From an uncultured Candidatus Hydrogenedens sp. (GTDB lineage Bacteria; Desulfobacterota_D; UBA1144), in assembly GCA_902609885.1 (NCBI GenBank), contig CACLTT010000006.1:6802-70801 (forward strand): 64,000 bases of DNA. The letters are read 5' to 3'. The position numbers and the translations under genes were made by a program. Below, one piece after another: positions 22,106 to 63,632 of this stretch. Under the pieces are notes generated by a model. That model did not search any database. It had not been told where the DNA came from and worked only from the letters and a program-made list of their open reading frames with translations. Within the stretch, counting starts at the first letter, position 1, and the number at the start of each line of letters is the position of its first letter.

Positions 22106-23302
22106 TTACTTTCCTGTTATCTTACTGATAACACCAGCTCCTACTGTTCTTCCCCCTTCACGAATTGAAAACTTCAATCCATCAGCCATAGCAACTGGGC
22201 AAATTAAATCCACATTCATTTTAGTATTATCCCCTGGCATTACCATTTCAACATTCTCGCCTAACTCAATAGACCCTGTTACGTCAGTTGTTCTAAAATA
22301 AAATTGTGGTCTGTATCCTTTAAAAAAAGGAGTATGTCTACCACCTTCCTCTTTCTTTAAGACGTAAACTTCGGCCTCAAATTTCTGGTGGGGCTTAATT
22401 GATCCTGGAGCACATAATACTTGTCCTCTTTCAACCTGATCTTTTTCAATACCTCTTAGAAGAACACCTACGTTATCTCCTGCTTCAGCATAATCCAAAA
22501 GTTTTCTGAACATTTCAATTCCAGTAGCTGTAGTTTCAATAGTATCTTTAATTCCTACAATTTCGATTTTATCACCTACATTTAGCTTTCCTTGCTCAAC
22601 TCTTCCAGTTACAACTGTACCCCTACCTGATATAGAAAAAACATCTTCAATAGCTAAAGAAAAAGGCTTATCTACATCACGTGTTGGCTGAGGTATCCAC
22701 TCATCAACTTGAGTCATAAGTTCAAGTATTGCTTTCTCCCCTGTTTCCGCATCACTACCTTCTACAGCAGCAAGAGCAGAACCAGATACTATAGGAGTAT
22801 CATCTCCCTCAAATCCATATTCATTTAATAATTCTCTAACTTCTAATTCAACTAACTCTACAAGCTCTTTATCACCACCCAATTGATCAACTTTATTTAA
22901 AAAAATAACTAGTCTCGGCACACCTACTTGTCTAGCAAGAAGAATATGTTCTCTAGTCTGAGGCATTGGGCCATCAGTGGCACTAACAACTAAAATAGCA
23001 CCATCCATTTGTGCAGCACCTGTAATCATATTTTTTACATAGTCCGCGTGTCCAGGACAATCTACGTGAGCATAATGACGTTTTTCTGTTTCATATTCAA
23101 CATGAGCTGTGTTAATAGTAATACCTCTTTCTTTTTCTTCAGGAGCATTATCGATATCTTCATATGACATTGACTCTCCACCACCAGCTTTTGACAAAGT
23201 ATTTGTAATAGCAGCTGTAAGTGTTGTTTTACCATGGTCAACATGACCAATAGTTCCTATATTACAATGAGGTTTATTCCTCTCAAATTTTTCTTTAGAC
23301 AT
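22106..23302 (-). CDS. tuf: elongation factor Tu
   Basis: 398 aa, [22 protein letters not shown]. Confidence 0.97.
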
Positions 23303-23329
23303 TTAAATATCCCTCCTATAAAACAAAAA

Positions 23330-25399
23330 TTATGCTTCTTTTAATTTCAACTGTTCATATATATTAGCTGGAACATCAGCATAAGTTGAAAACTCCATTG
23401 TAAATGTTGCACGACCTTCTGTCAAGGACCTTACATCTGTGGCATATCCGAACATTTCTGACAACGGAACCTCGCATTGTACACCTTGTAATTCTCCTCT
23501 TAATTCCGTTCCTTGAACCTTGCCTCTTCTTGAGCTTAAATCACCAATTACAGTTCCCATGAAATCTTCAGGACAAACAACCTCAACTTTCATCATTGGT
23601 TCTAAAACAACTGCTCCTGCTTTTTTTACAGCATCTTTAAATGCTAAAGAGCCTGCAATCTTAAAAGCCATTTCCGAAGAATCAACATCGTGAAACGATC
23701 CATCATACAAAGTAACTTTTACATCAACGACTTCATATCCAGCAACAACTCCAGAAGTCATAGCTTCCTGTATTCCTTTTTCGACAGCCGGTATGAATTC
23801 TCTAGGAATTGCTCCACCTTTGATCTCATTTACAAATTCAAATCCTCCACCAGTATCCATTGGCTCTATTCTAATTTTTACATGTCCATACTGACCTTTA
23901 CCACCGGTTTGTTTAATATATTTTTGTTCTGCTTCACTAGAACCTCTAATGGTTTCTCTATAGGCAACCTGGGGGGCGCCAACTTTTGCTTCAACATTAA
24001 ATTCTCTTTTTAATCTATCAACAATTATTTCTAAGTGAAGCTCTCCCATTCCAGAAATAATTGTCTGGTTTGTTTCATGATCAACCTTAACTTTGAAAGA
24101 TGGATCTTCTATTGATAACTTATTTAATGCCATACCAAGCTTTTCTTGGTCTGCCTTAGTCTCTGGCTCAATTGCAACAGAAATTACAGGATCTGGAAAA
24201 TTTAGACTTTCTAAAATAATTGGATTTCCTTTATCACATAAAGTTTCCCCAGTATAAGTGTCTTTCAAACCCACAGCAGCTGCAATATCACCTGCGCCTA
24301 CCGATGTGATTTCCTCTCTTTTATCAGCATGCATCTTTAATAACCTTCCTACCCTCTCAGAAGAATTTTTTAATGGATTAAAAACTTGTGTACCAGAATT
24401 CAATACACCTGAATAAACTCGTATGTATGTAATAGTACCAACAAAAGGGTCTGTCATAATTTTGAAGGCTAACGCAGATAAAGGTTCTTTATCATCAGCT
24501 TTCCTGCTCATTATTTCTTCTTCATTATCAGGAGATACTCCAGATACAGGAGGAATATCCAAAGGTGATGGAAGGTATCTGACAACAGCATCTAACAACA
24601 ACTGAACACCTTTATTTTTAAAGGCTGATCCACACAAGACCGGGACGATATTCAAGTCAATTGTTTGAACCCTGACGGCTTCTATAATTATATCTCGTTC
24701 TATTTCTTTTCCTTCTAAATAATCTTCCATTATGGACTCATTGTTATCTGATAATAATTCGAGCATATTATCTCTGGCTGCATTGGCTTCATCTAAGACA
24801 TCTCCGGGAATGTCTACTAACTCAAACTTTGCACCTAACGACTCTCCATCCCAAACAGCTAATTTCATTTCAATTAAATCAACAATGCCTTCAAAAATAT
24901 CATTTTTAAAATATGGAATATGTAGTCTTATAGGGTTCGAGCCAAGCCTTGATTTTATTTGATCAACTGTCCTTTGAAAATTAGCACCAGTTCTATCCAT
25001 TTTATTAACAAAACACATTCTGGGAACCTTATACCTATCAGCTTGTCTCCATACTGTTTCAGATTGTGGCTCAACACCACCCACACTATCAAAAACAACA
25101 CAGGCTCCATCTAAAACTTTAAGCGATCTTTCAACCTCGATAGTAAAATCTACGTGTCCAGGAGTATCAATAATATTAATGTCATGATTATCCCAACTAC
25201 AAGCAGTTGTAGCAGAAGTAATTGTGATTCCACGCTCTCTTTCTTGCTCCATCCAGTCCATTGTTGCAGCACCGTCATGTACTTCACCAATTTTATAACT
25301 TTTGCCTGTATAAAAAAGAATTCTTTCAGTGGTAGTTGTCTTACCAGCATCAATGTGTGCAACAATACCTATATTTCTAACCTTGTTTAAATCGTCCAT
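23330..25399 (-). CDS. fusA: elongation factor G
   Basis: 689 aa, [17 protein letters not shown], and EF-G domains IV and V. Confidence 0.97.
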
Positions 25400-25408
25400 A
25401 TTACCAAC

Positions 25409-25882
<474 letters not shown>

Positions 25883-26260
25883 TTAACTAGCCTTAGGCTT
25901 CTTTGTACCATATTTAGATCTTGACTGTTTACGTCCGTCTACACCAGCAGTATCGAGCGAACCTCTAACTATGTGGTATCTAACACCTGGTAAGTCTTTA
26001 ACTCTTCCACCCCTAATTAAAACAACTGAATGTTCTTGAAGTTTGTGTCCTTCACCAGGAATATAACCTGTAACCTCAAAACCATTTGTAAGCCTAATTC
26101 TAGCAACTTTTCTTAAAGCAGAGTTAGGTTTCTTTGGAGTAGTAGTATAAACACGAGTACAGACTCCTCTTTTTTGTGGATTCTTTTCCATAGCTCTTGA
26201 TTTACTTTTCTTCTTCTCAACAGAGCGTGGATTTTTAATTAATTGACTTATTGTTGGCAT
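25883..26260 (-). CDS. rpsL: 30S ribosomal protein S12
   Basis: The track ORF starts at 26296, but conserved S12 begins at the internal [10 protein letters not shown]. Start trimmed to the second Met at 26260, giving 125 aa. Confidence 0.9.
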
Positions 26261-26313
26261 AAAAACCTCATATTTAATGCTTGAAATATGCCACACTTTT
26301 AATCTATGTCAAG

Positions 26314-27594
26314 CTATTTACCTTTTTTTAAAAGGCCTTTAACTCCAATGTCATTTCTATACTGTAAATTTTTAGTTTCAATCTTATTTATGCATTCATA
26401 TGTCTTATTTATTGCGGCTTCTAGAGTATCTCCAAGAGCAGTAACATTTAAAACTCTGCCCCCCGATATGATAATTTTATTTCCATCTAACTTTGTTCCA
26501 GCATGAAAAATATATTCATCAGTTGAAAGATCAATTTCTTTAAGATTTCTTATTTCATCTCCTGTTATTGGGCTAGCGGGATATCCTTTTGATGCCAATA
26601 CAACTGAAACAGCTGTTTTACTTTTCCATTCTAGTTGATAATCATTAATTTTATTCAGAGCCGTAAAATAAAAAAGATCAAAGATATCAGAATTAATTCT
26701 AAAAAGTAATGGTTGAGTTTCAGGGTCACCAAATCTACAATTAAATTCTACAACAGAGGGTTTTTTATTGTCTATCATTAAACCTATATATAAAATTCCC
26801 GTATATTCAAAATTTTCTTTTTTAAATCCTTCAAAGACTGGGTAAACAATTTCATTTAAAATATTCTGTCTAGTAATTTGATCTATTATTGGCGCCGGTG
26901 AATATGCACCCATTCCACCCGTATTAGGTCCTTTATCTCCATCCATTAGCCTTTTATGATCTTGAGAAGAATCCAAAGTCAATATATTTTTACCATCAGA
27001 AAAAACAAAAAAAGATGCTTCTTCTCCTTTTAGAAAACTCTCAATAACAACTTTATCCCCAGAAGTTGAAAAAACTTTATCTTGCATAACCTCTTTTAAA
27101 AAAGAAAAAGCTTCATCTTTTGAGAAACAGACCTTAACACCTTTTCCTGATGCTAATCCATCGGCTTTAATAACTATTGGAATTGAGGAATTGTCTAAAT
27201 AATTTCTTGCGCTCTCGTAGTTAGTAAATGATTCAAATGTAGCAGTTGGGATATTATTTCTTTTCATAAATAATTTAGAAAACTCTTTACTCGATTCAAG
27301 CTGAGATGCATATTTAGAGGGTCCAAATACTAGCAAATTATTTTCACGAAATAGATCTACTATTCCAAGTGATAATGGTTGTTCTGGTCCTACAATTGTA
27401 AAATCAATATTTTCTTTTTTTGCAAAATTAACCAGCCCCTCAAGATTATCAGTTTTAATATTAACGATTTCTGCAATATTAGAGATACCTGCATTTCCTG
27501 GTGCACAATAGATTTTATCTATTTTTTTACTATTGGATATACCCCAACAAATCGCATGCTCTCTTCCCCCTGAGCCAATTACTAAAACTTTCAA
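26314..27594 (-). CDS. purD: phosphoribosylamine--glycine ligase
   Basis: 426 aa, MKVLVIGSGGREHA and an ATP-grasp fold. Confidence 0.9.
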   Translation of the reverse strand: MKVLVIGSGGREHAICWGISNSKKIDKIYCAPGNAGISNIAEIVNIKTDNLEGLVNFAKKENIDFTIVGPEQPLSLGIVDLFRENNLLVFGPSKYASQLESSKEFSKLFMKRNNIPTATFESFTNYESARNYLDNSSIPIVIKADGLASGKGVKVCFSKDEAFSFLKEVMQDKVFSTSGDKVVIESFLKGEEASFFVFSDGKNILTLDSSQDHKRLMDGDKGPNTGGMGAYSPAPIIDQITRQNILNEIVYPVFEGFKKENFEYTGILYIGLMIDNKKPSVVEFNCRFGDPETQPLLFRINSDIFDLFYFTALNKINDYQLEWKSKTAVSVVLASKGYPASPITGDEIRNLKEIDLSTDEYIFHAGTKLDGNKIIISGGRVLNVTALGDTLEAAINKTYECINKIETKNLQYRNDIGVKGLLKKGK

Positions 27595-27597
27595 AAT

Positions 27598-27906
27598 TCA
27601 CTCCTTAATCTTAATTGTAATTTCATTTTCAAATTCTGGGAAATAATTATTAATGATACTTAATTCAAAAGCAGGCAGTATAGACGTATTAGGCTCTCTT
27701 TTTAATAAAAATTCAAAACTTAGTTCAATCAATTTTAATTTACTAATCTTTTTATTTGTCATTTTTTTATAAATATTATCGTCAAGATTTACTTTATGTG
27801 AAGTGGTAGTCCTATTTAAGACTTTAACTTCAAAATTATCATTATCTATTTTCTTAATATCAATTTTCAACTTATATTTTTTCCCTAGGTCTAAAATAAA
27901 AATCAA
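27598..27906 (-). CDS. hypothetical protein (102 aa, Lys-rich, no recognisable family)
   Basis: Clean ORF between purD and blh, overlapping the blh stop by 35 nt. Coding status is uncertain. Confidence 0.4.
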   Translation of the reverse strand: MIFILDLGKKYKLKIDIKKIDNDNFEVKVLNRTTTSHKVNLDDNIYKKMTNKKISKLKLIELSFEFLLKREPNTSILPAFELSIINNYFPEFENEITIKIKE

Positions 27907-28672
27907 TTAGAATCATATGTGGAACAGTCAATGCGGCAAGGCCAATAAATATAATTCTATAAATCAACTCTAAATCACCATAAGTATCCCGAAATAAATT
28001 GAATATAATAATTCCGATTGTCCAGCTAGTAAAAGTAAAAAGGCTAAATAGTTTTATTATTTTGGATCTCGAAATTCTTTTTTTTAATGAAGGGATAATT
28101 CTCATAAAATGATTAATTGTATGTATAAAACAAAAATAAATGGCAAAAGCTAATAAGGGATGAAGGAATAAAACTGATAAAATAATCAAAAATAATCTTA
28201 GAATATCAATTGTAGAAAGTTTTTCTAAATTTATAAATAGCCATGGTAAAAAACTTACCAATATTAACGAACCAATATTTATAAATAACCAGACAAAGTT
28301 GGTTTCAAATGATAATGACTTGAAAATAATATCAACTTGTATAGGACTTGTGATGCTAATTCCGAAAATAATGAGTCCTCCATTAATAAAACCTAATATA
28401 TATTTCTCTTTTTTATCACTCCAATTGTAGTCTCCAAGCCCGAAATGAAATATACTAATTAGTAGAAATAAAATTAAACTGATCTGTGGAAAATTAATCC
28501 ATAGAATTGTAACAAATATAGCTAATCCAATATAAATAAGAAAAAAATAAAATTTACTAAAAAAATCATTTTTTATATCTAGGCATATGCTTACAGCACC
28601 ATCTAAAGCACCATGAGGTAATCCAATTAAAATTATCATTAGAAGTGAGACTAAGGTAACAGTATCAATCAT
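27872..28672 (-). CDS. blh: beta-carotene 15,15'-dioxygenase (Brp/Blh family; retinal synthesis)
   Basis: 266 aa polytopic membrane protein. GLPHGALDG matches the Brp/Blh family signature, and the gene is adjacent to crtY. Confidence 0.8.
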   Translation of the reverse strand: MIDTVTLVSLLMIILIGLPHGALDGAVSICLDIKNDFFSKFYFFLIYIGLAIFVTILWINFPQISLILFLLISIFHFGLGDYNWSDKKEKYILGFINGGLIIFGISITSPIQVDIIFKSLSFETNFVWLFINIGSLILVSFLPWLFINLEKLSTIDILRLFLIILSVLFLHPLLAFAIYFCFIHTINHFMRIIPSLKKRISRSKIIKLFSLFTFTSWTIGIIIFNLFRDTYGDLELIYRIIFIGLAALTVPHMILIDFYFRPREKI

Positions 28673-29777
28673 TAAAGACGCACCTTATAAAAGATTTAAT
28701 AAATATTTTTGTTGGCAAGTTGAATATCATTTTTAATATTGGAATAATTCTTATTTTACTAGACATAAAAAAAGCCATATCATCGCCATTAAAAGACTTC
28801 CCAAAAGATTGAAATATTTGTGGAGCTTTCGAAGGATTAGATTTTAAAACATCAATAAAAATTCTATCCAAAAGATTAATTAATTTTGAATGAATTTTAG
28901 AATTATTTATTTTATGAGGTAAATTAATTTTTCTACATAGGTTTTTAACTTGTTTTTGAATAAAATAAAATGTATATCCCGACGAAATTCTATTTGCATT
29001 CCCTTTAAGTCCTAAATTTATAACGTTTGGAATATAATCATTTTTGAAAGAGGCTAAAGGGATAGCGCCTTTTTCTTCACTAATTATTTTAAATTTATTA
29101 ACTTTATATATTTCCCTTAAATATTTTTCCATGCTTTTATAATAGAATTCATCACTTTCAATTCTGTAAGAATAAATAGTAGGTTCAATTAAAGCCATTT
29201 TTTTAGTAATGGGCAGTAAATAGATAAACTGAATGCCATTAGATTGATCACATCTAAAATCCATTAATACAGCAGTAGAGTCATCAAAAATTTCATTTTC
29301 AGTTTCAATAATGAATCCTTTAAAATGTTGCAAATATGTATCAGTAGAAATTTGAAATGAACGACAGTCTATTATTATATCTGAATTTATTTTTTCTGAA
29401 TCTTTTCTGTAAAAAAAGTTGTTTTTATAACTTATATCTTCATCAAAAAAACTAACATTCTCATCATTAATATTATTTTTGCAAAATTGAATCCAATCAT
29501 TTCTTGAAGTTACGCAATATGGGTGATTATTTGATTGAAATAGAGTTTCATTTTCTTGATCAATAATCTTCCATTTTTCCCATTTATATTTTATTACATT
29601 TTCTAAATCATTAATATCCTCAAAACTCCAAAAACCCCAAAAATTATTATTTGATTTTTTTGAGCCTAAATAAAAATCTATAATATTTTTTCTGCATTTT
29701 GACAATTCCTTCACTATTGAATATCCTGCGCAACCACCTCCAAGGACGGATATGTTTCTATTATATTTAGTTTTCAT
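28665..29777 (-). CDS. crtY: lycopene beta-cyclase
   Basis: 370 aa with an N-terminal FAD/NAD dinucleotide motif (VLGGGCAG). 8-nt overlap with blh and 4-nt overlap with crtB. Confidence 0.75.
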   Translation of the reverse strand: MKTKYNRNISVLGGGCAGYSIVKELSKCRKNIIDFYLGSKKSNNNFWGFWSFEDINDLENVIKYKWEKWKIIDQENETLFQSNNHPYCVTSRNDWIQFCKNNINDENVSFFDEDISYKNNFFYRKDSEKINSDIIIDCRSFQISTDTYLQHFKGFIIETENEIFDDSTAVLMDFRCDQSNGIQFIYLLPITKKMALIEPTIYSYRIESDEFYYKSMEKYLREIYKVNKFKIISEEKGAIPLASFKNDYIPNVINLGLKGNANRISSGYTFYFIQKQVKNLCRKINLPHKINNSKIHSKLINLLDRIFIDVLKSNPSKAPQIFQSFGKSFNGDDMAFFMSSKIRIIPILKMIFNLPTKIFIKSFIRCVFND

Positions 29778-30637
29778 TTTAATAATATTTGAAACGATTC
29801 AAAAAATATTGTTTTAACTGTAATAATAAACTTTTTATAATTAGGTACAAAATATCTTTTATCTGACCAATTATAATTATTTTTTTTTATCAGTACTCCA
29901 ATCTCCCTATAAATATTTGCAGCAACAGATATACAAACTCTTGATCTGAAAGGAAGATAATGATAACCATTTTTGGCTCTATCATAATATCTATCGGCTA
30001 GAATAAGTATACTTCTAATTGTATCTTTTATAATCAAATAACTCTTTTCATCTTTTTCTATGAAAATGTTTTTAATTTTTTTTGAATCAATATCTTCACA
30101 TATATCTGATGGTAAATATTTTCTATTAGAGCATGCGTCCTCAAATACATCTCGAGATATATTGGTTAACTGCATTGCAATACCCAAATCAGCAGCATAG
30201 CTTTTTGCCTTATCATTATTAACTCCCAAAATAGGACACATCATAATTCCTACTGTTCCCGCGACTTTATAACAATAATTTATTAATTCATCAGTATTTT
30301 TAATTTGAATATTACTTTTCTGATCGAATATTAAACCATCAATAAAAGTTAAAAATACTTTCTTTGCATTGATATCAGATTTTAATGAGTTTATAAAGAT
30401 AATATGTTTATCCATTCTCATATCGATAAACTCAGAAACTTCGTTTTCTAAATATTTCTTTATATCTTCAAATATATTTTTTTCATTTTTTTCGTTATCT
30501 GCGATATCATCTAAATCACGCAAAATATAATAGAGTTCTGAAATATCATTGAATTTATTTTTATCTATTAACTTGGAAGCCCAATAGAAGGTCTTTCCGT
30601 TTTCTTTTAGTGATTCAGTTTTATTATTTAACTCCAT
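29774..30637 (-). CDS. crtB: phytoene synthase
   Basis: 287 aa, YCYKVAGTVG (YxxxVAGxVG), the Asp-rich DDIAD, and DVFEDACSNRKYLP. Confidence 0.85.
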   Translation of the reverse strand: MELNNKTESLKENGKTFYWASKLIDKNKFNDISELYYILRDLDDIADNEKNEKNIFEDIKKYLENEVSEFIDMRMDKHIIFINSLKSDINAKKVFLTFIDGLIFDQKSNIQIKNTDELINYCYKVAGTVGIMMCPILGVNNDKAKSYAADLGIAMQLTNISRDVFEDACSNRKYLPSDICEDIDSKKIKNIFIEKDEKSYLIIKDTIRSILILADRYYDRAKNGYHYLPFRSRVCISVAANIYREIGVLIKKNNYNWSDKRYFVPNYKKFIITVKTIFFESFQILLK

Positions 30638-32114
30638 ATCTCTTCTTTAATATATTTTCTACAACTTTAGCTGAGGATAAGACACCTGGTAGACCTGCAC
30701 CGGGATGAGACCCCGCAGCTGAAAAAAATATATTAGAAATATTATCATCTTCGTTATGATATCGAAACCATGCCGATTGTGTAAATTTTGGGGCAATAGA
30801 AAATCCTGCTCCATACATTGACCTATAATTATTTTCAAAATCTTTTGGAGTCATATAAGAAATATCCTCAATATGATTGGTCAAATTTGGCATTATAGTT
30901 TTTTCTAACTCAGTAATTATTTGATCTTTTAATTTTTCTCCATGAACTGCCCAGTCAATATTATTTTTTAAATTCGGAACAGGGCAAAGAACATAAAAAC
31001 TATCATGTCCATCTGGCGCAAAAGATTTGTCTGTAGCAGTAGGCCTATGAAGATATAAGGAAAAATCTTTAGTTATTATCCTTTTCTCAAAAATATCATG
31101 CAATAGATCTTTAAAGCGTTCAGTTAACCATATAGTATGGTGTGCGATTTTTTCATATTTAGTTTTAGTTCCAAAAAAAAGAACAAATAGTCCCATAGAA
31201 TATGATAGAGACTTTGCAGGAAAAATAGGATTAAGAAAATTTCTTAAAGCTGGTTTAAGAATTTCTTTATAAAAAACAGGTGGATCGCCATTAAAAACTA
31301 AATTATCAAATTTATATTCCTTCCCACATTCAGTGATTGCTTTATAAGCAAAGGAATCTTTATGCTCAACTGATTTTAAATTTTTATTCATTTCTATATT
31401 AATATCGTTTCTTCTCATAAGATTAGTCAGCTCTTCTACTAATTTTCCAGTTCCACCCATACAGAAAAATACACCCCATTTTCTTTCAAGGAAATGAATT
31501 AATGAGTAAATTGATGTTGTCGTATAGGGATTACCTCCAACCAACAATGGATGAATAGAAAATGCTGATCTTATATTTTTATTTTTAATGTGTCTTGATA
31601 CCATCTTGGAGACGCTTTGATAACTTTTAAGTTTTAACAAATAAGGTATTTGCTTAATCATTGTCCAAAATGATGAAAACGATTGGTCAGAAAGTTTTGT
31701 AAAGCCAATATTAAATATTTTTTCTGACTCCTTTAATAAATTATCATATGATTCTGCATCTTCTGGAGAAAATTTTGATATCTCTTTTTTAGTTTTCTCA
31801 ACAGTTGATGAATAATCAAAAGTTGTTGAATCATGAAAATGAAATCTATACCAAGGATCTAAGGGTTTAAATTCTAAATGGTCACTGAGTTTTTCATTAA
31901 ATAAATTAAATAATTCCTCAAATAAGAAAGGTGCAGTTATGACTGTTGGACCTGTATCATATTTATATCCATTTCTTTCAATAACCTGTGCTCTTCCACC
32001 GAGTTTAGATAATTTGTCAATTATAGTTACATTATGGCCCATAGCTTTGCACCTCAATGCAGCAGCAATTCCACCAAATCCACCACCTACGACAAGAGTT
32101 TTGACACTATTCAT
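30624..32114 (-). CDS. crtI: phytoene desaturase
   Basis: 496 aa, VVGGGFGGIAAALR FAD motif and the CrtI family C-terminus. Confidence 0.85.
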   Translation of the reverse strand: MNSVKTLVVGGGFGGIAAALRCKAMGHNVTIIDKLSKLGGRAQVIERNGYKYDTGPTVITAPFLFEELFNLFNEKLSDHLEFKPLDPWYRFHFHDSTTFDYSSTVEKTKKEISKFSPEDAESYDNLLKESEKIFNIGFTKLSDQSFSSFWTMIKQIPYLLKLKSYQSVSKMVSRHIKNKNIRSAFSIHPLLVGGNPYTTTSIYSLIHFLERKWGVFFCMGGTGKLVEELTNLMRRNDINIEMNKNLKSVEHKDSFAYKAITECGKEYKFDNLVFNGDPPVFYKEILKPALRNFLNPIFPAKSLSYSMGLFVLFFGTKTKYEKIAHHTIWLTERFKDLLHDIFEKRIITKDFSLYLHRPTATDKSFAPDGHDSFYVLCPVPNLKNNIDWAVHGEKLKDQIITELEKTIMPNLTNHIEDISYMTPKDFENNYRSMYGAGFSIAPKFTQSAWFRYHNEDDNISNIFFSAAGSHPGAGLPGVLSSAKVVENILKKRYGVK

Positions 32115-32127
32115 TTAATTAAAGGTA

Positions 32128-32154
32128 AGGGCTTATACAGTAAGTACAAGCCCC
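32128..32154 (-). terminator. candidate intrinsic terminator hairpin downstream of the proteorhodopsin stop
   Basis: ggggcttatac (32128-32138) pairs with gtacaagcccc (32144-32154), giving an 11-bp stem with one G·U. The loop is 5 nt. On the minus-strand transcript a U/A-rich tract follows (UUACCUUUAAUUAAAU). It sits between the PR stop at 32163 and the crtI start at 32114. Confidence 0.5.
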
Positions 32155-32162
32155 TAGAATTT

Positions 32163-32918
32163 TTAAGCATCAACTTCAGTTGTAGCAGCAGCCCATATTG
32201 CTAAACAGAAACCGATTTTATTTATAAAATCTGCAACGTTATAAACTATATTAAGAGTAGCTTCATCAGTACCACCAGCTAAATATCCTAGAAAATACCC
32301 TAAAGGATAAATTGCCCAGCCTATAGTAACAATCCATTTCATTGTATTGAAAGCTGACTGAACCGAAGGTTTAGCATTTGCAGCACTTTTACTTGCTTCT
32401 CCAGAGAAGATCTCATACAGAATATAAGCCCAACCAGCCATACCTACAACAAAACCAATTGTTGTATTTATAAAACCAGCTTCACCCATATAACCTGCTA
32501 CAACCATAACAACAGTACCTATCAATAGTCTCCAAAAGACTCCCATAGAAACCGCAGTAACAGCAGCAAGAATAAGATAGAACTCAACCATCTGTAATGG
32601 AACAGTTACAATCCAATCAACGTATCTAAATACCGTTGGAGATGTACCTGTAGATGCCCATACTTCTCTCATGTAAAAATAGTGAACGCCTGCAACCAAA
32701 CAAATAAGTCCGCCAACAACCAATGATGTTCTAAATTTCCCTGTAACTCTTAAAGATTCAAGGAAAAAGAACGCTGTAGCGGCAACCATTGCAACTGATA
32801 TGATCCAGAAGGATATACCTACTGCATCATCCGGGGCTAAATTAGAACCAGCATATGATACTAATGGCATGCAAGCTATAATTGCGGAAAGTAAAAAGTA
32901 ATTTACATATTTTGACAT
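32163..32918 (-). CDS. proteorhodopsin (light-driven H+ pump; blue-tuned Q variant)
   Basis: 251 aa, 7-TM with a signal peptide. RYVDWIVTVPLQMVEFYLIL gives the D (acceptor) and E (donor) at the proton-pumping positions and Q at the tuning site. The retinal Lys lies in ADFINKIGF. A strong SD (AGGGAGG) is 7 nt upstream. Confidence 0.93.
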   Translation of the reverse strand: MSKYVNYFLLSAIIACMPLVSYAGSNLAPDDAVGISFWIISVAMVAATAFFFLESLRVTGKFRTSLVVGGLICLVAGVHYFYMREVWASTGTSPTVFRYVDWIVTVPLQMVEFYLILAAVTAVSMGVFWRLLIGTVVMVVAGYMGEAGFINTTIGFVVGMAGWAYILYEIFSGEASKSAANAKPSVQSAFNTMKWIVTIGWAIYPLGYFLGYLAGGTDEATLNIVYNVADFINKIGFCLAIWAAATTEVDA

Positions 32919-33027
32919 GTAAAAACCTCCCTAACTTAATTTATGAAGAATTTACCCTATATACTTAAAATGACAATACTTTATTAACATTTGGTATATT
33001 TAAGATGGTTATTTAAGGGGTGAAGTT

Positions 33028-33192
33028 ATGAATTTAAAAATTACATCAACAGTAATGAATCTGCTGCTTTTAGTCTTATGCTTTAGTTTTCTTATTAGTC
33101 ATGGGTTGCCAAAAAGTTGGATTTTATGGAGTTCATTGTTAGTCTGGTTTTTAGCGCCTCTGGTTAATCTGTTTTATATCTATAAAAAATAA
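33028..33192 (+). CDS. unannotated small membrane protein (54 aa, two predicted TM helices)
   Basis: Not in the ORF track because it is under 60 aa. ATG at 33028 is preceded by SD AAGGGGTG at about -14 to -7. It translates to MNLKITSTVMNLLLLVLCFSFLISHGLPKSWILWSSLLVWFLAPLVNLFYIYKK, with TAA at 33190-33192. It is divergent from the proteorhodopsin gene. Confidence 0.4.
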   Translation: MNLKITSTVMNLLLLVLCFSFLISHGLPKSWILWSSLLVWFLAPLVNLFYIYKK

Positions 33193-33197
33193 TGTTT

Positions 33198-33443
33198 TTA
33201 GTCATCCTGGTCTACGTTACGATCATCATTTATTGAGTCATTATCATTGCTGGGGTAACCTGATCTTCCATCATTATCCATTTCATTATGAGAATCATTA
33301 CTTATAACTTTATCAATATCTGTATCTAATTGCTCACTTATACCTTCATTATCGGTATTAGTATCAAAACTGTCGCAATTCGCATTACTTGAAAACATAA
33401 AAATAAATATTATTAAAATTATAGTAAAAATCTTATTTCTCAT
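33198..33443 (-). CDS. small secreted Asp/Asn/Ser-rich acidic protein (81 aa)
   Basis: N-terminal signal peptide (MRNKIFTIILIIFIFMFSSNANC), then a low-complexity acidic tail (DNDGRSGYPSNDNDSINDDRNVDQDD). Confidence 0.45.
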   Translation of the reverse strand: MRNKIFTIILIIFIFMFSSNANCDSFDTNTDNEGISEQLDTDIDKVISNDSHNEMDNDGRSGYPSNDNDSINDDRNVDQDD

Positions 33444-33480
33444 AAAATATTCATCCTTTAAGTAAAAATTATCATTATAA

Positions 33481-35265
33481 CTATTCCACTGTTACAACCT
33501 TTGCGAGATTTCTAGGCTGATCTATTGGCAACTTTTTAAATTTTGCTAAATGATATGAGAATAGTTGTAAAACTATCAGGTAAGAAATAGGCATTATGTC
33601 ATCTTCACTTTCAGGCACTGATATTGTTTCTAATTTTGATCTAATCTTTAGATTCAATTTATTTATTACCTTCTCAGGCGCAATGACTAAAACATTTCTG
33701 GTCCTGGATACTATTTCATTTAGACTAGCGATTTCGCTATGAACAGTTTCAACTTTATTTGAAATCAATAAAACAACAGGAAAATCCTTATCAAAAAGTG
33801 CAATGGGGCCATGTTTAATTTCTGATGATAGAGCGCCTTCAGCATGAATGTAAGCTATTTCTTTTATCTTTAATGCTGCTTCTGTAGCGATTGGAAAATT
33901 ATAATTTCTTCCTAAAACAAAGAAATTTTTATTTTTATAAAATTTTTTTGCTATTTCTTTTATATTTTTTTCCAGTTTAAAAACTTTATTTAAAAGAGAT
34001 ATTTGTGGCAATAAAATATTTTCTTTATCTTTCTTTTTGTTAAAAAGTTTTGAAATTATATTTAAAGTAATAATCTGAGATGAAAAAGTTTTTGTAGCTG
34101 CGACACCCTGTTCTATTCCGACTGCAAGATTAATAGAATTTTTTGACTCTCTGACTAATCTGGAGTCATTATTATTTACTAGAGACAAAGAATTCTTAAA
34201 GAAATCTCTGTTTGATTCTAGCAATGTACAAACATCTGCGGTTTCTCCACTTTGAGACATAAATATAAAAAGTTTTTTCTTATTATTTGAAAAATAATTA
34301 AATTCTGAAGGTCTATAAACAGACGTTGGTATGTCTGTATTTTCTTCGAAAAATATCTTACCTAATAGACCTGCATTATATGATGATCCGCATCCGATTA
34401 TAACTATCTCTTTAGGCTTAGGAATCTTTTTTATAATATTACTAATATTATCAACCCTAAAAATATGGTTACTTATTAATTTTTTTTGTTCTTTTATTTC
34501 ATTATATGTAATATTTTTTTTGATTTTCTTATTTATATTTTGATCGGTATTTTCTATTCTTTTTAATATTAATTTTTTTCTTTTTTTATTTATACAAAAT
34601 ATTTTAGGCTTATTGTTTTCTATATAAATAAATTCATCATTTTCGATATATCTATAGCCTTTGAGTGACTTTTTCATAGCATTTATGTCCGATGAGAAAA
34701 TGTTATCACCATTTATTTTCTGCCCATAATATAAGGGTGTATTGTATTTACATGCAATAACTTCATTAGAATTATCAGATATTTTAGAGCATATAAAAGC
34801 GTTTGAGCCTTTAACAATATTAAATGTTTTTATTATTGAATTAAGGAATGAATTAGAATAATTAAAAAATTTTATTAGTTGTAAAATTACTTCAGTATCG
34901 GTTTCTGTCTTTAATTTAATTTTTTTTAAATATTTACTATTTTTAATTTCCTCATAATTCTCTACTACTCCATTATGAACAATTGATAAATTTCCTAGTA
35001 CATGAGGATGACAATTTCTTAAGTTTGGCTCCCCGTGAGTAGCCCATCGAGTATGGCCCATTATCAAAGTAGAAGAGTTAAGTTTAGGAATTTTTGTTCT
35101 AAGATTGCTAATTTTTTGAAGTGTTTTGTAAGTTTTATATTTATTCTTATCAAGAATTGTAATTCCCGCAGAATCATAGCCTCTATATTCTAGCTCTTTT
35201 AAGGATACTAAGAATTCAGAGCATAAAGTTTCTTTTTTAGATATTGAAGTATATATTCCACACAT
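33481..35265 (-). CDS. glmS: glutamine--fructose-6-phosphate aminotransferase (isomerizing)
   Basis: 594 aa. MCGI N-terminal nucleophile Cys, two SIS domains and a C-terminal ...AKVVTVE. Confidence 0.88.
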   Translation of the reverse strand: MCGIYTSISKKETLCSEFLVSLKELEYRGYDSAGITILDKNKYKTYKTLQKISNLRTKIPKLNSSTLIMGHTRWATHGEPNLRNCHPHVLGNLSIVHNGVVENYEEIKNSKYLKKIKLKTETDTEVILQLIKFFNYSNSFLNSIIKTFNIVKGSNAFICSKISDNSNEVIACKYNTPLYYGQKINGDNIFSSDINAMKKSLKGYRYIENDEFIYIENNKPKIFCINKKRKKLILKRIENTDQNINKKIKKNITYNEIKEQKKLISNHIFRVDNISNIIKKIPKPKEIVIIGCGSSYNAGLLGKIFFEENTDIPTSVYRPSEFNYFSNNKKKLFIFMSQSGETADVCTLLESNRDFFKNSLSLVNNNDSRLVRESKNSINLAVGIEQGVAATKTFSSQIITLNIISKLFNKKKDKENILLPQISLLNKVFKLEKNIKEIAKKFYKNKNFFVLGRNYNFPIATEAALKIKEIAYIHAEGALSSEIKHGPIALFDKDFPVVLLISNKVETVHSEIASLNEIVSRTRNVLVIAPEKVINKLNLKIRSKLETISVPESEDDIMPISYLIVLQLFSYHLAKFKKLPIDQPRNLAKVVTVE

Positions 35266-38610: not shown

Positions 38611-38824
38611 CAAAAAACTAGCCTGGAATGAAATAACCAGACTTGGTGATTTTTTGAAAAATAAGTTACCAGAATCTAAATATCATCCTAATGGAAGAAA
38701 TCCATATGCCCATATTTTGGTTTTAATAAAAAAAAAGTTTGGCTGCAGTTATAAAGATATTAAAGATGAAGATTTTAAAACTTTACTAAGATTTATTAAA
38801 TTTATAAAAGCAAAATACAATTAA
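38597..38824 (+). CDS. hypothetical small protein (75 aa)
   Basis: ORF overlapping the hisIE stop by 14 nt, basic and Lys-rich, with no family recognised. Confidence 0.35.
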   Translation: MNENNKKLAWNEITRLGDFLKNKLPESKYHPNGRNPYAHILVLIKKKFGCSYKDIKDEDFKTLLRFIKFIKAKYN

Positions 38825-39360
38825 AGTATTTTTTTCCTAGATTTATCTTGGTATTGATGCTTGTATCTATTATCAGCCTTTATATTGTGCGGCCTATCCT
38901 TCTCTTCGATATAGTCAGTTATAGCAAGTTTACCTCTAATCTCTTTAGGCAAATCCTTCATACCAGGGGGTTTAGGAGGATCTGTAGAAAGATCACTTGT
39001 ATATGAAAAAGAAGATATTACTTTTTCTACCCTTCCTTTTTCACAGCAACCACACTTAACTTTTTTTTCGTCTTCTTTATCTAAAATTAATTCAGAAAAT
39101 CTAAAATCATCAACAGAAAATAAAACCATTTTTTTACCATCTTCAATATAAAGATCTATGTCAACTAGTTCACCCGTAAGCTTCCCAGCACTACAAATTT
39201 CTTCTTCTTTAATTAAATCAACTAAAATAACAGCCTTAATTTGAGAATATTTTTTCAAAACTGACTTAAGAGTTTTTAAATTTGGAGTTTTTTCAATTAA
39301 TTTTAATGAATCAAGAACTTGATTCCTACATGTTACACATTCAAATTCATAAAGTGGCAT
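38821..39360 (-). CDS. FmdB-like split zinc-ribbon protein with ~95-aa insert and disordered C-terminal tail (paralog 1)
   Basis: 179 aa. The N-terminus MPLYEFECVTC (FmdB-family MPxYEYxCxxC) is the first knuckle, and the second knuckle KCGCCEKG lies about 100 aa downstream. The Pro/Lys-rich tail contains PKPPG. Confidence 0.6.
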   Translation of the reverse strand: MPLYEFECVTCRNQVLDSLKLIEKTPNLKTLKSVLKKYSQIKAVILVDLIKEEEICSAGKLTGELVDIDLYIEDGKKMVLFSVDDFRFSELILDKEDEKKVKCGCCEKGRVEKVISSFSYTSDLSTDPPKPPGMKDLPKEIRGKLAITDYIEEKDRPHNIKADNRYKHQYQDKSRKKIL

Positions 39361-39370
39361 TTAATTATTC

Positions 39371-39913
39371 CTACTCTGATCCATATGAACCATCATGCTG
39401 AGAATTTCCAAAATATTGGTTAAGATGATCTTGTCCTACCCAATTTGAAGCTTGTTGTTCATCCTTCATAACTTTATAGTCTTTATGCCACTGTAAGGGG
39501 TCACCAGGCTTTGGTGCTCTATCTTTTTCACCCCCTCGTTTTTCGAAAATAGCTTTAAAAGGTGAAAATACTCTCGTAATATCTTTACATTTTTTATTAC
39601 AAGGGCATTTAACATTTTCTACTTTATCACCTTCAAAAAAAAGCTCGCTGAATTTAAAGTCCACTAACTCTAAATATAAAAATTTTTTTTCATCTAATTT
39701 ATATCTAAAACGCCTAATTCCTTTATTGCCCTCTTTACCAACAGAAAAAACTGTCTTTTCTGTTTTAGGATTAAGTAATTCAATGTATTTAAAATTCTTA
39801 TTCTTTTTTGAAAGACCTTCTGCATACTTTTTATTCAAATTTTTAACAAGCTTATCTATTTCCTTGTTATAAGATGTCATACAGTCTTTACATTCAAATT
39901 CGTATACTGGCAT
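39371..39913 (-). CDS. FmdB-like split zinc-ribbon protein (paralog 2 of tandem pair)
   Basis: 180 aa. MPVYEFECKDC ... VDFKFSELFFEGDKVENVKCPCNKKC is colinear with paralog 1 (VDDFRFSELILDKEDEKKVKCGCC). The tail contains PKPGDP. Confidence 0.6.
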   Translation of the reverse strand: MPVYEFECKDCMTSYNKEIDKLVKNLNKKYAEGLSKKNKNFKYIELLNPKTEKTVFSVGKEGNKGIRRFRYKLDEKKFLYLELVDFKFSELFFEGDKVENVKCPCNKKCKDITRVFSPFKAIFEKRGGEKDRAPKPGDPLQWHKDYKVMKDEQQASNWVGQDHLNQYFGNSQHDGSYGSE

Positions 39914-49415: not shown

Positions 49416-52034
49416 CTAATCAAGCTGGTTTAAAATATTTTCAATATTTTCTTTACTAATCTCAGATTCACTATATATTCTCTTTTCTCTCTCAATAACT
49501 TCCTTAGGGGCAGAATCGAGAAATTTTGGATTTTTTAATTTATTAGCAACTCTTTCTAAATCCTTATTTATAGCTCCTAAATCTTTCGAAAGCTTATTTT
49601 TTTGTGAAAGAATATCCATATCATTAGTTTTTCTAATAGAAATTTTAAAATATTTTGAAACTGTAGTAATAAACATTTTGTCATCCATATCATGATGTTT
49701 GATAGAATTTATATTTAGCAGCTTAGAGATTAAATCATTATTTGTAATAATGAATTCATAATATTTATTATTTTTTTCTATATATATATCAATTTTATAG
49801 GCCGGGGGAATAGAAAGATTTTTTCTAAAAGATCTAACTCCAACAACAAAATCTTGTAATAGGTTAAAATTGATTTTATCAATACTTTCAAAATTATATT
49901 TATTTTTTTCGGGCAATTCCTTTTTTCTATCTGATTTGTTTATCTGACTTAATAGCTCTGATGAAATAAAAGGACAGAATGGAAACAATAGTAAAATAAA
50001 ATCATGGAAAATATTTAATAATATTTCTTTTGTATTCTTATTTTCGTTACTTAAAAAAGAAATTTTTGAAATTTCAATATACCAATCACAGTAATCATCC
50101 CAGAAGAATTTATAGATTTCAGTAGCCGATTTTTCAATTTCACAATTTTCGATGTATTTCTCATATTTGCTTAGCAAGTCACTAAATTTTGAAATAATCC
50201 AAAAATCATAAAAGGTTTGGGGTTTCAATTGTTTTTTAATTTCATATCCATCGGAGTTAATTTTTACAAAATTGTAAGCATTCCAAATTTTATTCATAAA
50301 ATTTTTATATGAATCTAAGGAATTTTTTCCAATTTTAATGTCATTATGTGGGGATAAGTTTGATGAAAGATAAAATCTCAATGAATCTGTGCCATGTTGA
50401 TCAATTAGTTCTAAGGGATCAACAACATTACCTTTTGTCTTACTCATTTTATCCCCTTTTTGATCTCTTATAAGATTATGGATATATACAACTTTAAAAG
50501 GAATTTTTTTCGTTAATTTGATTGACATCATAATCATTCTTGCAACCCAGAAAAAAATAATATCAAAACCTGTAACTAAAATTGATGTTGGAAAAAAATT
50601 CGAATATTTTTCATTATTTTTTGGCCAACCTAAAGTTGAAAAGGGCCATAAACCTGAGGAAAACCATGTATCTAAAACGTCTGTTTCACGAACAAAATTA
50701 TCTGGCATTTTATTATATTTTTTTTGATATTCTAACAAAGCTTCTTTTTCGTCTTGAGCAGCGACTGAAAAATTATTACTACATGTCCATACCGGTATTT
50801 TATGACCCCATATAATTTGCCTAGAAATACACCATGGCTTTATGTTTTTCATCCATTCAAAAAAAGTGTTTTCCCAAAATTTTGGTTTAAATTCTATATC
50901 ACCACTCTTTACTGCTTTAATTGATTCCTTAGCCATATCTTTTACATCTAGGAACCACTGATATTTAAGTAACGGCTCAATTATAGCTGATGACCTATCA
51001 CCTTTAGGAGTGTTGTTAGTCACTTTCTCACTACCTTCATAAATATCTTTTTCTTTCATAAAAGTCAGTATTTTGTCTCTGGCTTCAATTGTTGATAGTC
51101 CTTTAAAGTTAACTGGAACATTATTATTTAAAGTGCCATCATCATTTAGAATATTTATCATTTCTAGTCCATGCTTTTTTGCTATTTCAAAATCATTAAA
51201 ATCGTGTCCAGGAGTTATCTTTACAGCTCCAGAGCCTTTACCTATATCGGCATAATCATCGCTAATTATTGGAATTTTTTTATCATTAAATATATTAAGA
51301 ACTTTTTTTCCTACCATGTGCGAGTATCTTTCATCATTTGGATTAACAGCAATAGCAGTGTCTCCGAATGCTGTCTCTGGTCTAGTAGTTGACACAATGA
51401 TACATTCATCAGAATCCTCTAAAAAATATTTAAAAGAATAAAGGTATGCTTTAGTTTCAACAGAAATAACCTCTAAATCTGAAATTGCAGTTTTCAAGAC
51501 TGGATCCCAATTGACTAAAGTCTTTTCCTTATAAATTAATCCTTCATTGAATAAATCTATAAATGCTTTATTAACAGCATTACTCATATCTTCATCAAGA
51601 GTGAACTTTTTATCATCCCAATCACAGCTCAATCCTAAAATTTTTAATTGGTTAATAATTTGATCACCATTTGTATTTTTCCATTTCCAAATTTCTTTTA
51701 TCAATTCATCATTTGAGAGTTTTTTTAAATTTATACCTTTTTTTTCTAATGATTTTTCTACAAGTAATTGAGTAGCAATACCAGCATGATCGGTACCAGG
51801 TGTCCAGTGAACATTAAATCCTTTAAGATAATAATATTTAACTAATATATCTTGAACTGTGGAATTTAGTGCATGGCCTAAGTGCAAACTGCCTGTAACA
51901 TTTGGTGGTGGAATTGCCAAAGAGAAAACTTTTTTTGAAACATCAAAACTTTTACTAATGGATAAAGAATCTATCCATTTTTCTTCAATTTCGTTTGAAT
52001 CATAAGTTTTAAAACTTTCAGTAGGTTTCATCAA
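49416..52034 (-). CDS. valS: valine--tRNA ligase
   Basis: 872 aa. HIGH-type [19 protein letters not shown], and a C-terminal coiled coil. Confidence 0.92.
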
Positions 52035-56107: not shown

Positions 56108-56125
56108 ATGATTTCCTCCAAAATT

Positions 56126-60286: not shown

Positions 60287-60323
60287 AAATTCACCTCTTG
60301 GACTAAAATAATTTAAAAAAAAA

Positions 60324-60713
60324 TTAAGCGACTTCTACTTTAGCGCCAACTTCTTCTAATTTCTTTTTAATTTCGTCTGCCTCTTCTTTCTTAACGCCTT
60401 GTTTAAGGGGTTTAGGTGCAGACTCAACAAGCTCTTTAGCTTCTTTAAGTCCAAGTGCAGTGACTTCTCTAACAATTTTAATAACTTTAATCTTCTCTCC
60501 ACCAGCTTCGCTTAGGGTAATATCAAATTCAGTCTTTTCTTCTCCCGCAGCTTCAGCTGGGGCAGCACCACCAGCAGGGGCAGCAGCTACAGCAACAGGA
60601 GCAGCGGCTTGAACGCCAAACTTTTCTTCGATATCTTTTACTAGTTCGGAAATCTCTAATAAATTAGCATTTTCTAAATAACTAATAACATCTTCTCTTG
60701 ATACTTCAGGCAT
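60324..60713 (-). CDS. rplL: 50S ribosomal protein L7/L12
   Basis: 129 aa with an Ala/Pro-rich hinge. Confidence 0.93.
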
Positions 60714-60749
60714 AATTTCCTCCGGATATTGAACTCGTATTATATATGG

Positions 60750-63146: not shown

Positions 63147-63169
63147 AATAACTAATTACAATCTCATAA

Positions 63170-63402: not shown

Positions 63403-63464
63403 AACTATTAATCTACCTCTCAACTTTATTAGTAACAACAAATTATTACTAAAATTATTATTCT

Positions 63465-63536
<72 letters not shown>

Positions 63537-63539
63537 AAA

Positions 63540-63614: not shown

Positions 63615-63632
63615 GATAAGTCATAATATACC

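What the first reader, a model, noticed from the sequence alone, without database searches (positions are those of the whole stretch)
32163..32918. Proteorhodopsin with blue-tuning Gln at the position-105 equivalent (VPLQMVEF)
In RYVDWIVTVPLQMVEFYLIL, the Asp proton acceptor and Glu donor are spaced as in H+-pumping proteorhodopsins. The residue between them at the spectral-tuning site is Gln. Established PR biology associates Gln with blue-absorbing (~490 nm) variants typical of oligotrophic or deeper open-ocean water, and Leu or Met with green variants. The retinal Lys (ADFINKIGF) is present and a signal peptide precedes helix A.
Basis: partly seen in the sequence, partly recalled or inferred. 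Interest (0 to 1): 0.5.

Follow-up and report, generated by a model that had tools for sequence, protein, structure and literature searches.

The report
Blue-tuned proteorhodopsin, already published
This is an ordinary light-driven proton pump (proteorhodopsin) with the glutamine that tunes it to blue light, sitting next to the genes that make its retinal pigment; the identical protein from a marine Dadabacteria genome has already been published with the same interpretation.

Summary
Window 32163..32918 (minus strand) encodes a 251-aa proteorhodopsin. In green-proteorhodopsin (GPR) numbering it has D97, T101, E108, R94, H75, D227, N230 and K231, and Gln at position 105.

The interpretation, a blue-tuned H+ pump with a leader peptide, is supported by several lines:
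- alignment to solved green and blue proteorhodopsins;
- a predicted fold matching them at TM-score 0.82-0.87;
- strong purifying selection;
- the retinal pathway genes crtI, crtB, crtY and blh immediately downstream.

It is not new. The protein is 100% identical to gene sp78_755 of MAG TOBG-SP78, a marine Dadabacteria genome of the 'Marine Pelagic I' clade. [quoted passage not shown] Gln105 is also the commonest variant in open-ocean surface water.

Three things go beyond the finding:
- The host is not a proteobacterium, yet the pump and its gene order are SAR116-like.
- The cassette of about 5.9 kb lies exactly between glmS and purD, and relatives without the pump have that site empty.
- One relative carries a Leu105 (green-type) allele at the same site.

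The absorption maximum and proton pumping have not been measured.

The parts
32163..32918 (-). Proteorhodopsin gene, 251 aa including the leader; the stop codon is at 32163..32165.
   Evidence: ORF. Pfam Bac_rhodopsin E = 2.8e-44. Best solved relatives are 4jq6 (4e-79), 8cqc and 4kly. AF2 model plus Foldseek gives TM 0.82-0.87 to proteorhodopsin structures.
32850..32918 (-). Predicted leader (signal) peptide, residues 1-23: MSKYVNYFLLSAIIACMPLVSYA, followed by GSN.
   Evidence: The sequence has Lys3, a hydrophobic core and S-Y-A before Gly24. It aligns with the GPR leader. It forms a separate low-confidence helix (residues 2-22) ahead of helix A in the model. The cleavage site is inferred.
32583..32618 (-). 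Helix C functional residues: D101 (GPR D97, proton acceptor), T105 (T101), Q109 (L/Q105, colour switch; codon CAG at 32592..32594) and E112 (E108, proton donor).
   Evidence: Alignments; codons read. D101, T105, Q109 and E112 are invariant in the 28-sequence alignment A1.
32217..32231 (-). Helix G residues D230 (GPR D227), N233 (N230) and K234 (K231, retinal Schiff-base lysine; codon AAA at 32217..32219).
   Evidence: invariant in A1. The role of N230 in colour comes from PMC10807816.
32926..32976 (-). Expression signals of the pump gene: a promoter-like TTGTCA-16-TAAATT at 32976..32949, and a strong Shine-Dalgarno AGGGAGG at 32932..32926, 7 nt before the ATG.
   Evidence: for the promoter-like site; sequence. 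The same TTGTCA...TA(A/C)ATT and AGGGAGG elements are kept in SP78 and L003. Function is inferred.
32126..32156 (-). Stem-loop of 13 pairs directly after the pump's stop codon, before crtI. It is probably a partial terminator that lets the pump be made in excess over the pigment enzymes.
   Evidence: -19.5 kcal/mol. A hairpin of different sequence sits at the same place in SP78, L002 and L003. In SAR116 and HIMB59-type loci it is followed by a long T run. Function is inferred.
30624..32114 (-). crtI, phytoene desaturase.
   Evidence: Pfam Amino_oxidase. NCBIfam TIGR02734 crtI_fam scores 516 bits, above its cut-off.
29774..30637 (-). crtB, phytoene synthase.
   Evidence: Pfam SQS_PSY 4e-43. NCBIfam CrtB models match but score below their cut-offs.
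28665..29777 (-). crtY, lycopene cyclase.
   Evidence: Pfam Lycopene_cycl 6e-35. NCBIfam lycopene cyclase models match but score below their cut-offs.
27872..28672 (-). blh, beta-carotene 15,15'-dioxygenase, which makes retinal.
   Evidence: Pfam BCD 1e-45. NCBIfam TIGR03753 scores 177 bits, above its cut-off.
27598..27906 (-). orf102, an unknown small ORF at the end of the cassette. It is kept in PR-bearing relatives and lies inside the indel.
   Evidence: There is no family match above a curated cut-off.
33028..33192 (+). 54-aa predicted membrane ORF transcribed divergently from the pump gene. It lies inside the indel, but its family is not pump-specific.
   Evidence: It is conserved in SP78, L002 and L003 and is called as a gene in public contigs. 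Homologue P0245 sits in unrelated neighbourhoods.

Best explanation
The gene encodes a functional retinal-binding proteorhodopsin that pumps protons outward in light and is tuned to blue light, with an expected absorption maximum of about 490-500 nm.

Expected mechanism, from established proteorhodopsin and bacteriorhodopsin chemistry:
- Retinal is bound as a protonated Schiff base to K234.
- Photoisomerisation transfers the proton to D101; D230, R98 and H79 form the counter-ion complex.
- The Schiff base is reprotonated from E112.
- The polar Gln109 next to the polyene and Schiff base, acting together with Asn233, raises the excitation energy relative to Leu variants.

The pigment is made in the cell by the four genes directly downstream: crtB and crtI make lycopene, crtY makes beta-carotene, and blh makes retinal. 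A hairpin after the pump gene probably keeps pump transcripts in excess over pigment-enzyme transcripts.

The host is a streamlined, AT-rich marine Dadabacterium of the surface open ocean. There the pump supplements a heterotrophic energy budget.

Shown here: gene integrity, residue correspondence, predicted fold, selection, gene context and host identity. Inferred: retinal binding, pumping, colour and hairpin function.
For: Family and residues:
- Searches give the family match and the residue correspondences.
- D101, T105, Q109, E112, F156, D230, N233 and K234 are invariant among 28 relatives of 67-93% identity.

Fold:
- The AF2 model has pLDDT 72.6. All its top PDB matches are proteorhodopsins, with TM normalised to target 0.82-0.87.

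Selection:
- There are no amino-acid changes against SP78, at dS 0.08.
- dN/dS is 0.07-0.08 against L002 and L003.
- The exact protein occurs in 64 blocks of public assemblies.

Retinal pathway:
- crtI, crtB, crtY and blh are adjacent on the same strand.
- The same order is kept in more than 60 related loci.

Literature:
- A DTE-Q rhodopsin from SAR11 acidified the medium in light in E. coli (PMC5864233).
- The Q/L105 switch is robust to sequence background and depends on the conserved N230 (PMC10807816).
- The identical SP78 protein is listed as a blue Q105 proton pump (PMC8115339 Table S7).

Host:
- RpoB is 75% identical to that of 'Deltaproteobacteria bacterium TMED58' and about 60% to Dadabacteria and Thermodesulfobacteriota.
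- TMED58 and SP78 are both marine Dadabacteria in PMC8115339.
Against: - Nothing here was measured: no spectrum, no pumping assay, no transcript data.
- No GGPP synthase (crtE) or idi gene lies in the cassette or elsewhere in the 64 kb. The supply of the CrtB substrate therefore rests on genes outside the window. PMC8115339 scores retinal biosynthesis in SP78 at only 0.5.
- The closest proteins with a measured colour are only 50-57% identical. The exact absorption maximum could therefore differ by 10 nm or more from 490 nm.
- The AF2 model is of moderate confidence.
Confidence: 0.88

Rival explanations
1. It is a functional proton pump but not blue-tuned: other pocket residues offset Gln109, so that it absorbs green light (above 515 nm).
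For: The nearest spectrally characterised relatives are only 50-57% identical. Position 105 accounts for about 20 nm, not the whole difference (abstract of PMC9325082). An N230S change moves a blue proteorhodopsin from 500 to 512 nm (PMC10807816), so second-site effects do exist.
Against: N233 (GPR N230) is present and invariant. The switch is reported to be robust across 2,840 diverse sequences, with no co-evolving partner residues. The best solved match is a blue proteorhodopsin, Med12.
Confidence: 0.07
2. It is not an energy-conserving pump but a sensory or structural paralogue, such as a flotillin-associated rhodopsin, or a decaying gene.
For: Flotillin-associated rhodopsins are close in sequence and fold: 9r21 and 9r23 score E = 1e-69 to 1e-71 and TM 0.84.
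Against: Flotillin-associated rhodopsins carry DTT, DTL or DNI motifs, lack the N-terminal leader, and sit next to a flotillin gene (PMC10308929). The query has DTE and a leader, and it sits next to carotenoid and retinal genes; no SPFH or flotillin domain was found among the neighbours scanned. No transducer gene is adjacent. dN/dS of 0-0.08 and an intact ORF in all relatives argue against decay.
Confidence: 0.02
3. The pump does not belong to this genome: the contig is a chimera, or a wrongly binned alphaproteobacterial fragment.
For: The pump and its cassette are SAR116-like: 72% identity, the same gene order, and 94% bootstrap for the joint clade. NCBI labels the closest MAG only as 'bacterium'.
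Against: The cassette lies inside a continuous run of host housekeeping genes: rpoB, rpoC, glmS, purD, rpsL, fusA, tuf. The same arrangement is found in independent assemblies of at least four diverged lineages. GC3 and codon usage of the pump gene match host genes. Pump-less relatives show the same flanks joined directly.
Confidence: 0.02

Closest known systems
Proteorhodopsin sp78_755 of marine Dadabacteria MAG TOBG-SP78 (GCA_002715585; Graham & Tully, ISME J 2021, PMC8115339)
   Same: The protein sequence is identical. Gene order from ssb to rpsL is the same. It is published as: proton pump, D97;E108, Blue, Q105, HF10_19P19-like subcluster.
   Different: The window DNA is only 93-96% identical to SP78 and to every public contig found, so it comes from a sister strain. 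The glmS-to-pump spacer differs and carries an extra 81-aa ORF.
Blue-absorbing proteorhodopsins with solved structures: Med12 (PDB 4jq6) and HOT75 (PDB 4kly)
   Same: Gln at position 105, the DTE motif, His75, Asn230 and Lys231, and the same fold.
   Different: Identity is only 57% to Med12 and about 50% to HOT75. They come from different, proteobacterial-type or unknown hosts.
Green-absorbing proteorhodopsin EBAC31A08 (PDB 8cqc, 7b03, 2l6x)
   Same: Same family, pump residues, leader peptide and Phe at the antenna-window position.
   Different: It has Leu instead of Gln at position 105 and is about 49% identical. It is not linked to carotenoid genes in its genome (from my own knowledge).
SAR116 and HIMB59-type proteorhodopsin photosystem clusters, and fosmid HF10_19P19 (Martinez et al. 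2007)
   Same: The order PR-crtI-crtB-crtY-blh, a hairpin after the pump gene, and Gln105. The pump is 70-73% identical to SAR116 pumps and groups with them at 94% bootstrap. The HF10_19P19 clone pumps protons in E. coli (PMC4989322).
   Different: The host belongs to a different phylum. No crtE or idi gene is in the cassette here; HF10_19P19 carries them (from memory, since the paper is not held).

Membership tests
Proteorhodopsin (type-1 microbial rhodopsin, DTE outward H+ pump) | Bacteriorhodopsin-like seven-helix domain | tested here: met
   Pfam PF01036 scores 151.7 bits against a cut-off of 24.6. The AF2 model's best PDB matches are proteorhodopsins at TM 0.82-0.87.
Proteorhodopsin (type-1 microbial rhodopsin, DTE outward H+ pump) | Schiff-base lysine in helix G (GPR K231) | tested here: met
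   K234 in ADFINK aligns with K231 and is invariant in A1.
Proteorhodopsin (type-1 microbial rhodopsin, DTE outward H+ pump) | D97 / T101 / E108 motif, plus R94, H75 and D227 | tested here: met
   D101, T105, E112, R98, H79 and D230; all are invariant in A1.
Proteorhodopsin (type-1 microbial rhodopsin, DTE outward H+ pump) | Light-driven outward proton transport with bound retinal | not testable with these tools
   This needs heterologous expression. It has been shown for other DTE-Q proteins (PMC5864233).
Proteorhodopsin photosystem gene cluster | Retinal pathway genes linked to the opsin (crtE, crtI, crtB, crtY, blh, sometimes idi) | tested here: inconclusive
   crtI, crtB, crtY and blh are adjacent. 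No crtE or idi was seen among the genes of the window that I examined; not every ORF was scanned.
Blue-absorbing proteorhodopsin | Gln at position 105 (bacteriorhodopsin position 93) | tested here: met
   Q109 aligns with L105 of GPR and Q105 of Med12 and HOT75.
Blue-absorbing proteorhodopsin | Conserved Asn230, the partner residue of the colour switch | tested here: met
   N233; its role is described in PMC10807816.
Blue-absorbing proteorhodopsin | Absorption maximum near 490-500 nm | not testable with these tools
   Spectroscopy is required.
Flotillin-associated rhodopsin | DTT, DTL or DNI motif; no N-terminal leader; flotillin gene adjacent on the same strand | tested here: not met
   The query has DTE and a leader, and its neighbours are glmS and crtI. 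The criteria come from PMC10308929.
Antenna-binding (fenestrated) proteorhodopsin or xanthorhodopsin | Gly at xanthorhodopsin position 156 (Phe152 in GPR) | tested here: not met
   The query has Phe156 opposite GPR Phe152, invariant in A1. Phe or Trp blocks carotenoid binding (bioRxiv 10.1101/2022.08.24.505090). The equivalence of GPR F152 to XR G156 is my inference: it is the only Phe in that stretch of helix 5.

The most novel reading that the evidence does not exclude
In marine Dadabacteria the whole light-harvesting unit is a sharply bounded insertion of about 5.9 kb between glmS and purD. It comprises the small ORF, the pump gene, crtI, crtB, crtY, blh and orf102, and was taken from a SAR116-like alphaproteobacterium. 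The pump gene and its upstream spacer still move between Dadabacteria species by recombination. Colour (Gln105 versus Leu105) would then be set by swapping whole alleles at a fixed site rather than by point mutation.
Probability: 0.4. Interest if true: 0.3.

Novelty: already known. Interest (0 to 1): 0.1.

Why it matters
As a finding it adds little. Blue-tuned Gln105 proteorhodopsins are the majority type in open-ocean surface water, and this exact protein has been published with the same reading.

Its value is as a clean, well-supported annotation. It also illustrates how a complete light-harvesting unit can sit as a plug-in cassette in a non-proteobacterial, genome-streamlined bacterium. The occupied and empty sites, and the green-type allele at the same site, could serve anyone studying how phototrophy is gained, lost or re-coloured in the sea.

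Tried and rejected
- Alphaproteobacterial host. The first related-locus scan suggested SAR116 or HIMB59. This was rejected by RpoB and by the published placement of SP78.
- Window is the SP78 contig itself. Rejected: identity is 93-95%. Its CrtI protein is not on record. The closest contig found is 96% identical.
- Gln frequency from the related loci. The count of Gln at position 105 in the loci is biased, because one search pattern was QMVEFYLI. My first ORF picker also took wrong ORFs in 34 loci. I rely instead on alignment A1 and on published counts.
- Codon bias as the cause of the pump gene's low synonymous divergence. Rejected: its CAI and GC3 are ordinary.
- The 54-aa divergent ORF as a pump-specific partner. 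Rejected: a homologue lies in unrelated contexts.
- Reading Martinez et al. 2007 for the absorption maximum of HF10_19P19. The paper is not held.
- Technical failures. The first whole-locus MAFFT run and the first bootstrap run timed out and were redone on a smaller scale. One paper reading failed on a term that was too short.

Full report
**Observation.** Window 32163..32918 holds an intact minus-strand ORF of 251 aa. It matches Pfam Bac_rhodopsin at E = 2.8e-44. Among solved structures its best matches are proteorhodopsins:
- blue Med12 (4jq6), E = 4e-79;
- green EBAC31A08 (8cqc), E = 1e-75;
- blue HOT75 (4kly), E = 3e-75.

The printed HMMER alignments put query TVPLQMVEF opposite TVPLLICEF of the green protein and TVPLQIIEF of Med12.

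A MAFFT alignment with reference sequences gives these correspondences, GPR numbering first: D97 = D101, T101 = T105, L105 = Q109, E108 = E112, R94 = R98, H75 = H79, D227 = D230, K231 = K234. By the same register, N230 = N233. I confirmed the codons in the raw sequence.

**Further tests of what it is.** In an alignment of 28 relatives (67-93% identical), D101, T105, Q109, E112, F156, D230, N233 and K234 are all invariant.

An AlphaFold2 model built on that alignment has moderate confidence (pLDDT 72.6). It shows a leader helix (residues 2-22), a loop, and then the transmembrane helices. Its best PDB matches are all proteorhodopsins, with TM 0.82-0.87 normalised to the target.

The gene is under strong purifying selection. 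It has no amino-acid difference from the closest MAG at dS 0.08. Against two more distant relatives dN/dS is 0.07-0.08. The exact protein sequence is on record in 64 blocks of public assemblies, mostly Tara Oceans.

Two related families were considered and excluded.
- Flotillin-associated rhodopsins are close in sequence. They have DTT, DTL or DNI motifs, no leader and a flotillin neighbour (PMC10308929). None of these applies here.
- Carotenoid-antenna proteorhodopsins have Gly at the antenna-window position. Here that residue is Phe156, opposite Phe152 of GPR, so no carotenoid antenna is expected.

**Surroundings.** Directly downstream on the same strand lie four genes:
- crtI at 30624..32114;
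- crtB at 29774..30637;
- crtY at 28665..29777;
- blh at 27872..28672.

Together they form the pathway from GGPP to retinal. No crtE or idi gene was seen in the cassette or among the other window genes I examined.

A 13-pair hairpin follows the pump's stop codon. A hairpin of different sequence occupies the same place in three related lineages. In SAR116 and HIMB59-type loci it is a canonical terminator with a T run. I infer partial termination, which would keep pump transcripts above pigment-enzyme transcripts.

Upstream there is a promoter-like TTGTCA-16-TAAATT and a strong AGGGAGG ribosome-binding site. Both are conserved in SP78 and L003.

**Host.** The related-locus scan returned a 100% protein match in PAZJ02000009.1, 'MAG: bacterium isolate SP78'. 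Two 'uncultured bacterium' MAGs followed at 91-93%, then SAR116 at 72% and HIMB59-type alphaproteobacteria at 70%.

The window's RpoB is not alphaproteobacterial. Its nearest named relative is 'Deltaproteobacteria bacterium TMED58' at 75%, followed by Thermodesulfobacteriota and Dadabacteria at about 60%. Graham & Tully (ISME J 2021, PMC8115339) place TOBG-SP78 in the 'Marine Pelagic 1' clade of marine Dadabacteria and TMED58 in 'Marine Pelagic 2'.

The window itself is 93-96% identical in DNA to SP78 and to every public contig recovered. It therefore comes from a sister strain.

[quoted passage not shown] The text states that seven of the eight pumps in this clade are predicted to be blue-tuned, and that the clade lives mainly in the upper 100 m.

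At Station ALOHA, Q105 accounts for about 80% of proteorhodopsins at 25-125 m, and DTE-Q proteins pump protons in E. coli (PMC5864233). The Q/L105 switch is described as robust to sequence background and dependent on the conserved Asn230 (PMC10807816).

The finding is therefore correct, ordinary and already published for the identical protein.

**Mechanism.**
- Shown here: an intact and selected gene, all catalytic residues, the predicted fold, and a linked retinal pathway.
- Inferred from established proteorhodopsin chemistry: retinal bound to K234, proton release to D101, reprotonation from E112, and a blue shift from the polar Gln109 acting with Asn233.
- Expected absorption maximum: about 490-500 nm.
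- Main uncertainties: the lack of any measurement; the 50-57% identity to the nearest spectrally characterised proteins; and the unseen GGPP source.

**Beyond the finding.**

1. *Origin of the pump.* The pump clade of these Dadabacteria is monophyletic (100% NJ bootstrap). It groups with SAR116-type pumps (94%) inside a set of alphaproteobacterial and SAR92 pumps. CrtI is likewise closest to SAR116 (62-64%), and the gene order is the same. Base composition is fully host-like. This points to an old lateral acquisition of the whole cassette.

2. *Empty site.* Three metagenome contigs carry the same flanks, nudix-ssb-glmU-glmS-purD-rpsL-rpsG-fusA-tuf, with fusA 84-89% identical where complete. 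In two of them glmS and purD are joined with only 27 bp between them; in the third a 126-aa membrane ORF fills the gap. None has a pump or pigment genes. Window 27595..33480 is thus a sharply bounded indel. This matches the published split between a pump-bearing clade and a pump-less clade.

3. *A green-type allele at the same site.* One relative, on a 1.05-Mb contig, has the cassette at the same site. Its pump is only about 73% identical and has Leu at position 105. Another relative with equally diverged housekeeping genes has a 90%-identical Gln pump.

4. *Signs of recombination.* The pump gene has the lowest synonymous divergence of any gene in the locus in every comparison. Identity along the locus is mosaic. 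SP78 and L003 share a spacer and small ORF at 92-94% against a 60-70% background, while the window's own spacer is diverged from all the others and holds a private 81-aa ORF. These patterns suggest continuing recombination at this site. I did not test this formally.

**Verdict.** Observation confirmed. Interpretation supported. Already known. Low interest.

Noticed in passing
window 27595..33480; loci L101, L102, L104: The pump and pigment cassette is a sharply bounded indel between glmS and purD. Related contigs with the same flanks have glmS and purD only 27 bp apart (L101, L102) or separated by a 126-aa membrane ORF (L104), and they have no pump.
   Followed up: partly
L100 4697..5446 (contig Ga0222719_10000001, 1.05 Mb): A related Dadabacterium has the same cassette at the same site, but its pump is only about 73% identical and has Leu at position 105 (green type). 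This suggests replacement of the pump allele rather than a point change. The same locus has 2.7 kb of extra genes between glmS and the pump, including a 313-aa HNH-like ORF.
   Followed up: partly
window 32163..32918 compared with L001, L002, L003: The pump gene has the lowest synonymous divergence in the locus: dS 0.08 against 0.09-0.67 for the other genes, and 0.53-0.72 against 1.1-2.5. Its codon usage is ordinary, which points to gene flow rather than codon bias.
   Followed up: partly
window 32985..33482: The glmS-to-pump spacer is mosaic. The window's version aligns poorly with SP78 even though the flanks are 94-98% identical. SP78 and the much more distant L003 share a spacer that is 92-94% identical.
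   Followed up: partly
window 33198..33443 (-): An 81-aa ORF with a signal-peptide-like start and an Asp/Asn-rich tail is present only in this window. It is absent from SP78, L002, L003, L082-L091 and L096. It has no family match.
   Followed up: partly
window 33028..33192 (+): A conserved 54-aa predicted membrane ORF is transcribed divergently from the pump gene in all pump-bearing relatives. A 57%-identical homologue sits next to a peptidase C26 gene and, on the longest contig, TRAP-transporter genes in other contigs, so it is not pump-specific.
   Followed up: yes
window 27598..27906 (-): orf102 follows blh and overlaps its end. It is kept in pump-bearing relatives (47-98% identity) and lies inside the indel. 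It has only a sub-threshold DUF2660 match, and its function is unknown.
   Followed up: partly
window 22106..27594 and 52031..63800: About 26 kb of housekeeping genes, including the pump cassette, separates rpoB-rpoC from the rpsL-rpsG-fusA-tuf operon. Upstream of secE-nusG there is a cluster of tRNA genes in the order Thr-Tyr-Gly-Thr, then Trp, with no tuf copy between them.
   Followed up: no
window 38821..39913 (-): Two tandem paralogous ORFs of 179 and 180 aa both start with MP(L/V)YEFEC and carry CxxC pairs, suggesting zinc-ribbon proteins. They were not scanned against any family library.
   Followed up: no
whole window: The window matches no public contig exactly. The best match is MDTC01236419.1 (L096) at 96%, followed by SP78 and the Tara contigs at 93-95%. 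Its CrtI protein is not on record, so the source is a strain or species not represented in the collections searched.
   Followed up: yes
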